Assembly (NCBI GenBank): GCA_019057475.1
Contig: DXJO01000020.1
Span: 113,412-177,411, forward strand
DNA length: 64,000 nucleotides
Direction: 5' to 3'
Origin: Candidatus Thorarchaeota archaeon
GTDB taxonomy: Archaea; Asgardarchaeota; Thorarchaeia; Thorarchaeales; Thorarchaeaceae
The position numbers were made by a program, and so were the translations under genes. The number at the start of each line of letters is the position of its first letter. Positions within the stretch are counted from its first letter, which is position 1. Under the pieces are notes generated by a model. It was not told where the DNA came from and made no database searches. It saw nothing but the letters and a program-made list of their open reading frames with translations. Shown in pieces: positions 8,755-64,000 of this stretch.

Positions 8755-9426
8755 GTGAAGCAGTTGGAACGCTCTTTTGTAATAATCAAACCTGATGGAA
8801 CCGCTAGAAGAAGAGTGAGTGCCTTAGTGATCAAGGCTCTACTGGATAGAGGATACAGTGTCCGTGCCTTCAAAGAAATGAAGGTATCCAAATCGTTGGC
8901 TGAAATGCACTACGCGGTCCATAAGGAGAAACCATTCTTCCCTTGGCTTGTAGACTTCATAACTTCCGCCAATGTTCTGACAATGATTCTCGAAGCTGAT
9001 AACGTAATCGAGGGCGTTCGCGAAGCGCTTGGTGCGACATTCGTTCAGAAGGCTTCGTCCGATTCACTAAGAGGACGTTATGGAATATGGGCTGGCATCA
9101 ATATCGCCCACGCATCTGATGGACCGGATACCGCAAGAACTGAGATATCTCTCTGGATGACTGAAGGTGGCATTGAAGAGTCTGATGACGCAGAGGCCTC
9201 TGCTTGGGCCTATATCAACAAGTACAGTTCTGGAAGCGCAGATTATACCATGGATATTCGCAATATTGTCAAAGAATCCATTGAAAATGGAAACACATCA
9301 CCTGCTGTTCTGAGCTCGCTGGAAGATCTGCTAGGTAAAGATGCAGACGGAATCGAGAAGAAATCAATCGACGCTCTGGCAAACGCGATTTTTGATTACA
9401 TTAAGGAAGAAGCCGAGAAAAAATGA
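8755..9426 (+). CDS. ndk: Nucleoside diphosphate kinase with C-terminal extension
   Basis: ERSFVIIKPDG, HYAVHKEKPFF, SLRGRYG, catalytic NIAHASD. Confidence 0.9.
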   Translation: MKQLERSFVIIKPDGTARRRVSALVIKALLDRGYSVRAFKEMKVSKSLAEMHYAVHKEKPFFPWLVDFITSANVLTMILEADNVIEGVREALGATFVQKASSDSLRGRYGIWAGINIAHASDGPDTARTEISLWMTEGGIEESDDAEASAWAYINKYSSGSADYTMDIRNIVKESIENGNTSPAVLSSLEDLLGKDADGIEKKSIDALANAIFDYIKEEAEKK

Positions 9427-11450: not shown

Positions 11451-11606
11451 TTCTTATGGGCCGGTCCAAGTACCACAATTAAGGGTATGCAACAGCTGCG
11501 AAGAACCTGTAAAATCTTGAACATTTCGTAGGTAGTTATGACATACTGCTCAGGATTGAGTGGTGTGGTTGTTCAATGCTGATTGCTAATGCCTGCATGC
11601 AATTTG

Positions 11607-11763
11607 GTCGCCGCCAGTTAGACGGAGACAGAAAACGCCTATGGAGAGGACGTGAGACTTGTCGCAGATTCAGTAGGATCTGCAGAGCAGACCTCAATGA
11701 ATCAGGAACCGAACATCAGTCAAGGACATTGATGTCTAGGATTGTACAAGTTTCGGGCTACGG
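11607..11763 (+). repeat. Dispersed structured non-coding element, copy A
   Basis: 11661-11763 matches the reverse complement of 63896-63998 at 100/103 nt; diverged homolog at 49783-49934. Confidence 0.9.
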
Positions 11764-11915
11764 CTTCTATCTCGTGCCAACTGGGCCAGCTTCCAGTAAT
11801 CCTTGTATCAGTCTTAAGTAGAGTGAATTACGGGCCGGGAATTTGCGAGTGTAATACTACAGCTGATATGTTGAAGGTGCACGATTCATTCAGTGAGCAC
11901 CTGGAGTCCCATCTC

Positions 11916-49476: not shown

Positions 49477-49773
49477 TCAGGGGGCTTCAGTACACTCACA
49501 GGGCGTCCTTCCACACTTGGAGCACACTCCGCTGTACTTGTTGTATAGTGCCTCTGAGAGATCGATGTCCAAAAGGTTCGCAATCGAACATACCCACGCA
49601 AAGACATCTGCGACCTCATCAGACAGTTCGTTTTTGCTTTTGCTTCTTAGGATTGCATCGCTCAGCTCACCCAGTTCCTCGAAGGTTCTAAGCAATGTTC
49701 TCTCTAGTCCTCTTGCCCTATCTCTCTCTATGTAGATGTGACGTATCATGTCCTGTGCTTTTTTCGTATCCAT
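49477..49773 (-). CDS. MazG-like nucleotide pyrophosphohydrolase
   Basis: EELGEL, DEVADV, CSKC..PCEC tail. Confidence 0.88.
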   Translation of the reverse strand: MDTKKAQDMIRHIYIERDRARGLERTLLRTFEELGELSDAILRSKSKNELSDEVADVFAWVCSIANLLDIDLSEALYNKYSGVCSKCGRTPCECTEAP

Positions 49774-49782
49774 GAGAGCTCA

Positions 49783-49934
49783 CCGTTGCCCGAAACCTAG
49801 ACGATCCTGGACATCATATTCCATGATCGATGTTCGGTTCCTGATTCATCAAGGTTGCATCGTAAATCCTTGACCTACGACGTCTAACGACCTTTCCAAC
49901 AGGCGTTTTAAGTCTCCGTGCAACTCGCGGCGAC
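49783..49934 (-). repeat. Dispersed structured non-coding element, copy B (diverged)
   Basis: Aligns to 11607-11763 with conserved blocks (GTCGCCGC, ACGGAGAC, AAAACGCCT, ATGAATCAGGAACCGAACATC, GTTTCGGGC-ACGG). Confidence 0.85.
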
Positions 49935-50092
49935 AATAGAGTTAGTTCATGGACTTGGTTCTTGTCCTGAATCGGCTCCATACCCTAGTATTCCATCTGG
50001 ACTTTATATGCACCAATAATAAAATGTGCAGCAATGTCTAGGTTTTTAGCAGCTGTTGGCAACCTCACAAAGCCCACGATTGCAGTGGTCCC

Positions 50093-51415
50093 TTACATGA
50101 ATCTCAAATGTGCATATGCGGGCGTGTCAGTGTCGAAAGCATAGTGGACTTTCTGATAGTCCTTTCTAAACTCTGCAACTTCAGCTGCAATCTTGTTCAC
50201 ATCCTCACCTTTCATGACGACACGATGCATGAGCTCTGCGATTGCATCCATCTCAGACTCCTTCATGCCCAGTCTCGTCATCTCGCTTGTTCCCAGTCGA
50301 ATTCCACCGGGTGTCTTGTAGTCGCGCCCCATCTTCTTGTCCCATGGCAGAAGGTTACGATTGATCACAATGTTCGCGTTTTCCAGCTCTTCTTCCACCG
50401 TTCGACCGTTTTTCATTGGTGAGTCTGATATGTCCGCTAGAACCACATGGGATTCGGTGAAGCCCTTGTGTTCTGCAATCACTTTCCATCCTCTCTCGTG
50501 GAGCGCCTGTGCCAGAGCTTTGGCATTCTTGAGTATCTGGTCCATGTATGCATCTCCAAACTCAGTCAGCTCAGCGAGTACTACTGCAAGTCCAGCCACG
50601 TTGTGGAGATGGTGATTACTAAGCATCCCTGGGAATGATGCCTTCTTAATCGGTTCGGCGAACTCAGCCTTGGATAAAACAATGCCGTGCTGCGGGCCAG
50701 GCATAGTCTTATGCGTTGAGGCAGTCATGATGTCTGCACCCTCCCTCAACGGGTCTTGAAACAGTCCTGCTGCAATCAGACCTGAAACGTGCGCTGAGTC
50801 ATAGCCAATCTTCATTTCGTACTCGTCAGCAATCTCTCGAAACTCCTTCACCGGATGTGGGAATGGGAATACACTGCCACCGAAGAGCAAGAGCTTGATC
50901 TCCTTCCCGTCTGCATGCATTTTCTTAATCAGCTTCATGCTTGCATCCACATCGATGTTGAACTCATTATCGTCAAAGATCCAGTTCCTCACTTTGTGGC
51001 CTCTTATTGCTCCAGCAGTTCCCCCCAGGTTCTTCCTAGCATGAGAGATGTGTCCGCCATGTGCGATTGAAAGAGCCATCATCCTATCGAGGGGTGCCAT
51101 AACTGCTGTGTACATCACCAGATTAGCGACTACTCCGGACACCGGCCGCACGTCAGCAAACTCTGCTTTGAACAGTCTCTCAGCGAGTTCTATGCAGATT
51201 AGCTCCACCTCATCGATGTACTTACAGCCTGCATACACCCTCTCTCCCGGCCAGCCCTCTGCATAGCGGTCTCGAAAGTCACTGACTATCGCAGACCTAA
51301 CGGCTGGTGATGACACATTCTCTGATGCAATGAGGTTGATTGTATTCTGCATCCATGTGTCATGTTTCTCTAAGAGTCCAAATACTTCATCGTAAAGCTT
51401 CTTGTGGTCGCTCAA
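50093..51415 (-). CDS. glyA: Serine hydroxymethyltransferase
   Basis: NLIASEN, RYAEG, GGHISH, STHKT, GIRLGT; TTG start after AAGGAGG. Confidence 0.96.
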   Translation of the reverse strand: MSDHKKLYDEVFGLLEKHDTWMQNTINLIASENVSSPAVRSAIVSDFRDRYAEGWPGERVYAGCKYIDEVELICIELAERLFKAEFADVRPVSGVVANLVMYTAVMAPLDRMMALSIAHGGHISHARKNLGGTAGAIRGHKVRNWIFDDNEFNIDVDASMKLIKKMHADGKEIKLLLFGGSVFPFPHPVKEFREIADEYEMKIGYDSAHVSGLIAAGLFQDPLREGADIMTASTHKTMPGPQHGIVLSKAEFAEPIKKASFPGMLSNHHLHNVAGLAVVLAELTEFGDAYMDQILKNAKALAQALHERGWKVIAEHKGFTESHVVLADISDSPMKNGRTVEEELENANIVINRNLLPWDKKMGRDYKTPGGIRLGTSEMTRLGMKESEMDAIAELMHRVVMKGEDVNKIAAEVAEFRKDYQKVHYAFDTDTPAYAHLRFM

Positions 51416-60456: not shown

Positions 60457-60545
60457 CTTTCATGTCAAGATGTTCCATCTAACAATGATCGGTTAGTGGC
60501 TTAGCAGGATGGTTCGGTTCATTCAAAAGAATAAGGTGGCGGGCC
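60425..60545 (+). ncRNA. Putative omega-RNA-like scaffold and guide at tnpB 3' end
   Basis: Hairpins CCGT/ACGG, CTTGAC/GTCAAG, CCATC/GATGG enclosing CTAAC/GTTAG, ending GGTTCA-TTCA. Confidence 0.5.
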
Positions 60546-60613
60546 GGGCGGGATTCGAACCCGCGGCCAACAAGTTAAGAGCCTGTCGCTCTACCGGGCT
60601 GAGCCACCGGCCC
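60537..60613 (-). tRNA. tRNA-Lys(CTT), encoded CCA
   Basis: GGGCCGG/CCGGCCC acceptor; ACAGG-CTCTTAA-CTTGT; GTTCGAATC. Confidence 0.96.
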
Positions 60614-63895: not shown

Positions 63896-63998
63896 CCGTT
63901 GCCCGAAACTTGTACAATCATGGACATCAATGTCCTTGACTGATGTTCGGTTCCTGATTCATTGAGGTCTGCTCTGCAGATCCTACTGAATCTGCGAC
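63896..63998 (-). repeat. Dispersed structured non-coding element, copy C (cut by window end)
   Basis: 100/103 identity to 11661-11763 in reverse complement. Confidence 0.9.
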
Positions 63999-64000
63999 TA

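What the first reader, a model, noticed from the sequence alone, without database searches (positions are those of the whole stretch)
11607..11763. Unannotated multi-hairpin non-coding element in three dispersed copies with compensatory changes
Seen: copies at 11607-11763 (+), 49783-49934 (-) and 63896-63998 (-, cut by the window). A and C are 100/103 identical; B is diverged and has small indels that break codon phase, which argues against coding. Conserved stems: GTC.CCG/CGG.GAC; ACG-CCT/AGG.CGT with a kept bulge; GCAGAT/ATCTGC in A versus GTAGGT/ATTTAC in B (one compensatory pair plus G-U wobbles that fix the strand); ACATC/GATGT; CCGAA/TTCGG. Similarity stops sharply after TTTCGGGC(T/A)ACGG. 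Neighbours are unrelated (GTPase, MazG, convergent acyl-CoA dehydrogenase), arguing against a riboswitch. I do not recognise the family. Inference: a new structured RNA family, possibly stand-alone guide scaffolds with variable 3' guides, or a non-autonomous mobile element.
Basis: partly seen in the sequence, partly recalled or inferred. Interest (0 to 1): 0.82.

Follow-up and report, generated by a model that had tools for sequence, protein, structure and literature searches.

The report
Gene-less mini-transposon carrying a TnpB guide RNA
The "new multi-hairpin RNA" is the guide-RNA (omega RNA) scaffold and right end of a 278-bp gene-less derivative of an IS607-family TnpB transposon that has spread through a Thorarchaeota (Asgard archaeon) genus. 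It is a real structured RNA element, but of a kind already described.

Summary
In detail: three copies sit at the stated places, the stems are real, and similarity stops sharply after ...GGGC(A/T)ACGG. The element is larger than reported and is not a new RNA class.

Copy A is window 11486-11763, a 278-bp non-autonomous (MITE-like) internal-deletion derivative of a ~1.34-kb tnpB-only element. Its intact form elsewhere in the genome encodes a 404-aa TnpB.

The reported 157 nt are the last ~40 codons of tnpB plus ~34 nt to the right end. That is where TnpB elements encode their omega RNA scaffold, and the variable flank serves as guide.

Empty orthologous sites in three congeneric genomes show insertion at a single GG, with an AGGG|Y target and no duplication. 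A 67%-identical TnpB with the same right end sits directly behind an IS607 serine transposase gene in another genus. The family is therefore IS607, not IS605; no Y1 transposase was found.

Covariation supports the RNA fold: 15 of 29 pairs show compensatory changes across 43 sequences. At least five independent deletion forms all keep the same ~150-185-nt 3' module. Within the gene-less copies this module is half as diverse as the left end.

Stand-alone omega RNAs are already known. This is a new member of a known kind, of moderate-to-low interest.

The parts
11484..11485 (+). Left GG of the target (core dinucleotide); the 5' flank reads AAGGG
   Evidence: Empty sites in G005, G003 and G006 carry one GG where G000 has GG...element...GG. 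The 5' flank logo is A18/23, G20/23, G23/23, G22/23.
11486..11597 (+). Copy A, left-end part. It holds the transposon left end, the tnpB 5' leader, and the tnpB start codon (ATG at 11576) with its first ~7 codons, up to the deletion junction.
   Evidence: It aligns to positions 120-233 of the full-length element on G000:C18.
11598..11763 (+). Copy A, right-end module: the remnant of the last ~40 tnpB codons (carrying a TGG>TAG change at 11633-11635) plus ~34 nt to the right end. The omega RNA scaffold is 11605-11763 and ends in GG.
   Evidence: It aligns to positions 1287-1457 of the full-length element. The covariance model scores it 187.3 bits. Fold energy is -47.8 kcal/mol, z = -2.5.
11764..11779 (+). 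Predicted guide segment of copy A (the flank directly 3' of the scaffold)
   Evidence: This is an inference from TnpB/omega RNA biology. The flanks of all copies are unrelated to each other and have no second genomic match next to AGGG.
49783..50062 (-). Copy B, a complete 280-bp mini-element of a diverged subfamily. Its scaffold is 49783-49936. It fills the spacer between the SHMT stop (50093) and the mazG start (49773).
   Evidence: (139.7 bits). An orthologous copy with the same flank lies at G001:C38.
63896..64000 (-). Copy C, the 3' 105 nt of an A-type right end, cut off by the end of the contig (which is also the end of the window)
   Evidence: 100/103 identical to A; 112.1 bits, model positions 55-159, cut at the 5' side.

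Best explanation
The element is a non-autonomous, MITE-like internal-deletion derivative of an IS607-family tnpB element. It keeps two parts. The first is the left end, with the tnpB leader and start codon. The second is the ~160-170-nt 3' module that, in the intact element, overlaps the end of tnpB and runs to the right end. That module encodes the omega RNA scaffold, and the DNA just beyond the right end supplies the guide.

Shown here:
- Derivation from a TnpB element.
- Insertion at a GG core in an AGGG|Y context, without target duplication.
- A conserved RNA fold that shows covariation.
- Spread of the gene-less form through a whole genus.

Inferred:
- The mini-elements are cut out and pasted by an IS607-type serine transposase supplied in trans.
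- Their omega RNAs are transcribed in the tnpB sense, possibly from the retained tnpB leader.
- These RNAs load onto TnpB made by the few intact copies. TnpB then cuts the vacated site (TAM about AGGG plus the flank matching the guide), and repair from the sister copy restores the mini-element.
For: 1. Full-length parent. G000:C18 carries a ~1340-bp element with a 404-aa ORF. Pfam finds HTH_OrfB_IS605, OrfB_IS605 and Cas12f1-like_TNB. NCBIfam gives guided_TnpB 330.7 bits (cut-off 100) and IS607_TnpB 342.8 bits (cut-off 350). The match to ISDra2 TnpB (8h1j) has E = 2.4e-68, with the GVDLG, IEDL and DRDLNAA motifs and two CxxC pairs present.

2. Deletion structure. The mini-element equals positions 120-233 joined to 1287-1457 of that parent.

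3. Insertion site. G005, G003 and G006 have the uninterrupted site ...TTAAGGGCTTCTAT..., leaving a 2-nt GG ambiguity. Flank logos give AGGG on the left and C or T (27/31) on the right. This matches the strict GG core and TGGG target/TAM shown experimentally for an IS607 TnpA (10.1101/2023.11.20.567912).

4. Link to an IS607 transposase. In G012, a different genus, a 190-aa IS607 transposase (186 bits, cut-off 110) overlaps a tnpB 67% identical to this one. That tnpB is followed by a right end 79% identical, ending GTTTCGGGCAACGG.

5. Transposases in this genome. No Y1 transposase was found in this genome or in the two other genus genomes searched with that family. Two IS607-type transposase genes are present. 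One of them lies in an element whose left and right subterminal sequences are homologous to those of the mini-element.

6. RNA fold. On 43 sequences from three taxonomic families, 88% of cells pair against 31-46% when slid. Fifteen of 29 pairs have compensatory changes, and the covariation score is 0.251 against 0.126 for shuffles, with 0 of 500 shuffles reaching it. Frequent U-G pairs fit the tnpB-sense strand.

7. Position relative to tnpB. Distant model hits in G029, G030, G049 and G015 sit at the 3' end of tnpB genes 48-52% identical to this one.

8. The module is kept. Five separate deletion forms all retain it: the 283-bp and 325-bp forms in G000, the ~345-bp form in G004, the B/C type, and the D type that carries a tnpA N-terminal remnant. 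In 13 gene-less copies, diversity is 0.064 in this module against 0.125 in the left part. It is lowest (0.03-0.05) in the interior of the module, more than 30 nt from the end.
Against: - Transcription, processing and TnpB loading of the gene-less copies are therefore unproven.
- No intact cognate transposase was found in the genus. The two IS607 transposases in this genome are only 33-42% identical to the G012 TnpA. The one whose element ends resemble the mini-element looks frameshifted before its C-terminal helix.
- The TnpB scores just below the IS607_TnpB cut-off (342.8 against 350) and almost as well on the IS200_TnpB model.
- The low diversity of the module could also reflect gene conversion from full-length copies.
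- The alignment used was fitted to the model, which favours the tested structure.
Confidence: 0.88

Rival explanations
1. The mini-elements are mobile, but their omega RNA part is a passive relic. On this view the 3' module is kept only because the transposase needs the right end, and the RNA has no function in gene-less copies.
For: There is no expression evidence. Copy A has substitutions in the leader (TTATAA to TTATGA) and in the scaffold. No guide has a second genomic target.
Against: An IS607 TnpA needs only about 60 bp of each end. Yet five independent deletions all stop just upstream of the first stem, about 150-185 nt from the end. The best-conserved stretch is the interior of the scaffold, not the terminal 30 nt. 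Base pairing is maintained by compensatory changes among gene-less subfamilies.
Confidence: 0.25
2. It is an IS200/IS605-type (Y1, single-strand) element of the PATE or IS1341 kind. On this view the hairpins are DNA hairpins recognised by a Y1 TnpA.
For: The TnpB scores almost equally on the IS200/IS605 TnpB model. Its closest solved relative is ISDra2 TnpB, from an IS200/IS605-family element (the family assignment is from my own knowledge). The own-genome copies carry tnpB only.
Against: No Y1 transposase was found in this genome or the two other genus genomes searched with that family; it appears in only 1 of 21 genomes searched (own genome included). There is a GG at both junctions and a single GG in empty sites. 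A serine transposase gene directly precedes the 67%-identical tnpB in G012. Remnants of that tnpA lie inside D-type mini-elements.
Confidence: 0.04
3. It is an independent, novel structured non-coding RNA gene or cis-regulatory element unrelated to transposons.
For: There is no Rfam match. The stems covary.
Against: It is collinear with the 3' end of tnpB in full-length copies. It is always bounded by transposon ends. There is insertion polymorphism between species. The genomic neighbours are unrelated to each other and there is no orientation bias.
Confidence: 0.02
4. It encodes a small protein, for example the 81-aa ORF at 11576-11821 that starts at the retained tnpB ATG.
For: An ORF runs from the retained ATG through the module into the flank in copy A.
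Against: Its frame differs from the tnpB frame and continues into unrelated flanks. Subfamilies differ by indels that are not multiples of three. The substitution pattern preserves base pairs rather than codons.
Confidence: 0.02

Closest known systems
TnpB omega RNA (reRNA) of OMEGA systems, including stand-alone mobilised omega RNAs (Altae-Tran et al. 2021, as summarised in PMC10691335)
   Same: The scaffold overlaps the 3' end of tnpB and runs to the right end. A variable flank sits directly after it as guide. Gene-less copies coexist with a few effector-bearing copies in one genome.
   Different: This lineage is from an Asgard archaeon and has no Rfam model. Trans use is not shown here. Here the gene-less copies outnumber tnpB copies about 5 to 1, fall into several subfamilies, and persist across a genus.
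IS607 family (serine-recombinase TnpA plus TnpB), e.g. H. pylori IS607 and the C. botulinum IStron (10.1101/2023.11.20.567912; PMC6188088)
   Same: There is a GG core dinucleotide at both junctions and no target duplication. The NGGG target doubles as the presumed TAM. A MerR-HTH/resolvase transposase lies upstream of tnpB in the autonomous relative. Laboratory mini-IS constructs lacking both genes are mobilised in trans.
   Different: The copies in this genome lack tnpA. The target is AGGG rather than TGGG. The left and right subterminal regions share an imperfect ~20-nt inverted repeat, whereas IS607 is described as lacking terminal inverted repeats. There is no group I intron.
MITEs and PATEs derived from IS200/IS605-family elements in archaea and bacteria
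   Same: They are short, gene-less, multi-copy internal-deletion derivatives that share their ends with a full-length IS and show insertion polymorphism.
   Different: The ends and target are of the serine-recombinase (double-strand, GG) type, not Y1 hairpin ends. The element keeps a whole guide-RNA module rather than only the terminal recognition sequences.

Membership tests
TnpB omega RNA | Encoded at or overlapping the 3' end of tnpB and ending at the transposon right end | tested here: met
   Full-length copies on C18 and C31 place the tnpB stop about 34 nt before the right end, with the scaffold covering the last ~40 codons. The same arrangement holds for tnpB genes 48-67% identical in G012, G029, G030, G049 and G015.
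TnpB omega RNA | Conserved secondary structure supported by covariation | tested here: met
   88% of cells paired against 31-46% slid; 15 of 29 pairs with compensatory changes; 0 of 500 shuffles reach the observed score. One search gives 92.7% paired on an alignment that was not fitted to the structure.
TnpB omega RNA | Variable guide immediately 3' of the scaffold, taken from flanking DNA | tested here: met
   Similarity ends at ...CAACGG in every copy, and the flanks are unrelated.
TnpB omega RNA | Transcribed, processed and bound by TnpB to direct TAM-dependent DNA cleavage | not testable with these tools
IS607 family | Serine-recombinase TnpA (N-terminal MerR-type HTH plus resolvase catalytic domain) encoded upstream of tnpB in autonomous members | tested here: met
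   G012, locus L116: a 190-aa IS607 transposase (186.3 bits, cut-off 110) overlaps the 67%-identical tnpB. In the window's genus only N-terminal tnpA remnants and distant IS607 transposases were found.
IS607 family | Recombination at a GG core: GG at both junctions, one GG in the empty site, no target-site duplication | tested here: met
   Three empty orthologous sites. Logos come from 23 left and 31 right junctions.
IS607 family | TnpB passes the curated IS607_TnpB model | tested here: inconclusive
   342.8 bits against a cut-off of 350. The IS200_TnpB model gives 333.8 against 425. The general TnpB model is passed.
IS200/IS605 (Y1) family | Y1 HUH transposase available, and insertion 3' of a TAM without shared junction bases | tested here: not met
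   PF01797 was not found in G000 (96% complete), G001 or G005. The junctions share GG.
MITE (non-autonomous IS derivative) | Short, gene-less and multi-copy; ends identical to a full-length element; presence/absence polymorphism | tested here: met
   There are about 18 copies of the 283-bp form plus other forms in G000. The same junction occurs in six other species. Empty sites exist. There are no true terminal inverted repeats, only an imperfect subterminal one, hence 'MITE-like'.

The most novel reading that the evidence does not exclude
The gene-less copies may be actively selected trans-acting guide carriers. They would parasitise both the serine transposase (for movement) and TnpB made by the few intact copies (for homing back into vacated sites). 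On this reading the repeated, independent trimming of elements down to 'left end plus omega RNA' is an adaptive route to many guides per nuclease gene. It would be a dispersed natural counterpart of a guide array in an Asgard archaeon. The four-state orthologous site (empty, 278-283 bp, ~345 bp, full-length) would then reflect homing or conversion among family members.
Probability: 0.3. Interest if true: 0.55.

Novelty: new member of a known kind. Interest (0 to 1): 0.33.

Why it matters
- It explains a repeat that breaks this assembly at many contig ends, and that looks like a new RNA gene when read without tools.
- It gives a covariance model and fold for an Asgard IS607 omega RNA that Rfam lacks.
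- The five independent deletion forms act as a natural deletion map. They place the 5' edge of the functional 3' module within about 25 nt of the first stem (GTCGCCG...).
- It predicts a TAM (AGGG) and an intact compact 404-aa TnpB that could be tested together.
- It does not reveal a new class of system.

Tried and rejected
- Rfam at gathering and at permissive thresholds gave only chance-level hits: RAGATH-18 at 19.9 bits against a cut-off of 44.9.
- The search for a Y1 transposase in this genome and family found none in the genus.
- I searched for second genomic targets of the 31 predicted guides (16 nt, up to 2 mismatches). There were only chance matches, none preceded by AGGG. There is therefore no sign that guides have been co-opted for other targets.
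- I tested orientation relative to the downstream gene. There was no bias, about 12 co-oriented against 16 opposed, so no support for a regulatory role.
- I tested the CCGAA/TTCGG stem against the long-range GAGACTTGT/ACAAGTTTC helix. The two overlap, so both cannot form fully. The first never varies, so covariation neither supports nor contradicts it. The second is only 71-81% paired, with some compensatory changes. I could not decide which forms, or whether it is a pseudoknot.
- I considered in-situ recurrent deletion to explain the shared 283-bp junction. I rejected it because the junction region of copy A carries mini-element-specific substitutions (AATTTGG against AATCTTG). Conversion from another mini-element is more likely.

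Full report
**Observation**

The three copies are at the stated coordinates. A and C are 100/103 identical. B is 76.6% identical, with indels. Similarity ends at ...GTTTCGGGC(A/T)ACGG in every copy. The neighbours are an Arf-family GTPase, MazG (with SHMT upstream), and a convergent acyl-CoA dehydrogenase. Rfam has no match.

The element is far from three-copy. BLAST finds about 40 matches in the window's own 3.34-Mb, 56-contig assembly, many exactly at contig ends. The repeat also extends about 121 nt further upstream than reported.

**What it derives from**

In a few places the upstream and downstream parts of the repeat lie about 1.05 kb apart. The complete copy on G000:C18 is about 1340 bp and holds one 404-aa ORF.
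- Pfam finds HTH_OrfB_IS605, OrfB_IS605 and Cas12f1-like_TNB.
- NCBIfam passes the general TnpB model (330.7 bits against a cut-off of 100). It scores 342.8 on IS607_TnpB (cut-off 350) and 333.8 on IS200_TnpB (cut-off 425).
- The match to ISDra2 TnpB has E = 2.4e-68, with the RuvC motifs and the zinc-ribbon cysteines in place.

The short element equals positions 120-233 of this parent (left end, leader, ATG and about 7 codons) joined to positions 1287-1457. The second piece is the last ~40 codons plus about 34 nt to the right end. In copy A the tnpB frame carries a TGG>TAG change. This is exactly the stretch where TnpB elements encode the omega RNA scaffold.

**Ends, target and family**

For copy A, the orthologous site is uninterrupted in three congeneric genomes (G005, G003, G006). 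It reads ...TTAAGGGCTTCTAT..., so the insert is 278 bp with a 2-nt GG ambiguity.

Across 23 left and 31 right junctions in this genome, the 5' flank is A-G-G-G and the first 3' base is C or T in 27 of 31. This is the IS607 signature. Experiments on an IS607 TnpA showed a strict GG core, a TGGG target equal to the TnpB TAM, and trans mobilisation of a mini-IS lacking both genes (10.1101/2023.11.20.567912).

In genome G012, a different genus, a 190-aa IS607 transposase (186 bits, cut-off 110) overlaps a tnpB 67% identical to this one. That tnpB is followed by a right end ending GTTTCGGGCAACGG.

No Y1 transposase was found in this genome, or in the two other genus genomes that were among the 21 searched with that family.

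This genome has two IS607-type transposase genes.
- The one on C53 lies in a larger element whose left subterminal 44 nt (about 75% identical) and right subterminal 40 nt resemble those of the mini-element. However, it appears frameshifted before its C-terminal helix.
- Both are only 33-42% identical to the G012 enzyme.
- In the genus, only N-terminal remnants of a closer tnpA were found, embedded in another mini-element type.

Which enzyme moves these elements today is therefore open.

**RNA structure**

At that sampling, clear compensatory change is confined to the variable hairpin.

I built a covariance model. It finds the element in 23 of the 61 genomes searched in the taxonomic family (7 of 16 genera). 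A separate search also found it in two genomes from other families of the phylum.

On 43 sequences from this wider set:
- 15 of 29 pairs show compensatory changes: all 6 in the variable hairpin, 4 of 5 in the 3' hairpin, 2 in the first stem and 3 in the long-range helix.
- 88% of cells pair, against 31-46% for slid partners.
- No shuffle out of 500 reaches the observed covariation score.

This alignment was fitted to the model, which favours the structure. Many U-G pairs fit the tnpB-sense strand. The distant hits lie at the 3' ends of tnpB genes 48-52% identical to this one, while those examined in G014 (five loci) have no tnpB upstream.

**Is the RNA module kept for a reason?**

At least five independent deletion forms exist:
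- the 283-bp form in G000;
- the 325-bp form in G000;
- a ~345-bp form in G004 at the site orthologous to copy A;
- the B/C type;
- the D type, which carries a tnpA remnant.

All of them retain about 150-185 nt at the 3' end, and homology begins within about 25 nt of the first stem.

Among 13 gene-less copies, diversity is 0.125 in the left part and 0.064 in the module. The minimum (0.03-0.05) is in the interior of the module, while the last 30 nt score 0.10. A serine transposase needs only about 60 bp of each end. The pattern therefore suggests selection on the RNA, although gene conversion from full-length copies could contribute.

The guides have no second targets, and insertion orientation is unbiased. 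The expected role is the ordinary one: directing TnpB to the vacated site.

**Comparison and novelty**

Stand-alone, mobilised omega RNAs that work in trans are already described (PMC10691335, citing Altae-Tran 2021). The IS607 GG mechanics are also known.

What is new here is a specific Asgard (Thorarchaeota) IS607 omega RNA lineage with no Rfam model. Gene-less copies outnumber tnpB copies about 5 to 1, fall into several subfamilies, and are shared across a genus. That makes it a new member of a known kind.

Earlier notes of this scan on other pieces of the same genome also report IS607-like elements with GG junctions and miniature copies. I used them as leads only.

**Limits**

The mobilising transposase is unidentified. 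The choice between the long-range helix and the CCGAA/TTCGG stem is unresolved. Copy counts are approximate because many copies sit at contig ends.

Noticed in passing
window 11484-11763, and the orthologous sites G001:C275/C175, G004:C72:4949-5014, G005:C61:18117, G003:C158 and G006:C100: One orthologous GG site exists in four states within the genus. It holds a full-length tnpB element in G001, a ~345-bp derivative in G004, and the 278-283-bp mini-element in G000. It is empty in G003, G005 and G006. The G000 and G004 copies share rare left-end substitutions, but only G000 has the standard mini-element junction. This suggests conversion from another mini-element.
   Followed up: partly
window 49773-50093 (- strand): Mini-element B fills the whole spacer between the SHMT stop and the mazG start. 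Its terminal GG plus the flank reads GGTGA about 8 nt before the mazG ATG, so a Shine-Dalgarno-like motif stays intact after insertion. G001 carries the same insertion.
   Followed up: partly
G000:C53:742-1500 (L032): The IS607-type tnpA, whose element ends resemble the mini-element ends, looks disrupted. The conserved C-terminal ...SF..R.YG.RS helix is encoded in another frame, after a stop.
   Followed up: partly
G000:C53:683-695 and 9292-9304: Both junctions of the large C53 IS607-like element read GG followed by the same TTCCGTAACTG.
   Followed up: no
Left end about 14-36 nt in and right end about 2-24 nt in, e.g. window 11499-11517 and 11740-11761: The subterminal regions of the left and right ends form an imperfect ~20-nt inverted repeat. 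It is AACTTGTACAAT / ATTGTACAAGTT in the A type and AACCTAGAC / GTCTAGGTT in the B type, and it changes together between subfamilies. It could be a transposase binding site. The right arm is also the 3' strand of the long-range RNA helix.
   Followed up: partly
G004:C17:7-166, G004:C159 and G004:C18 (L095-L097): These are recombinant right ends, with a C-type 5' half (hairpin AGTTAATTC...) joined to an A-type 3' half (GTACAAGTTTCGG). This shows exchange between subfamilies.
   Followed up: no
G014 (16 model hits; five examined in L125, L130, L133, L135, L137): Another genus carries 16 matches to the model. The five loci examined show no tnpB within 1.5 kb upstream, so this is probably a separate expansion of stand-alone copies.
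   Followed up: partly
window 60540-60613 (-): A tRNA gene, the only Rfam match in the window (69.6 bits).
   Followed up: no
G000:C34:69130-69146 and G000:C3:138682-138706: The predicted guide of the right end at the end of contig C34 resembles (14 of 16) the left flank of the mini-element at the end of contig C3. This may be an assembly adjacency or chance.
   Followed up: no
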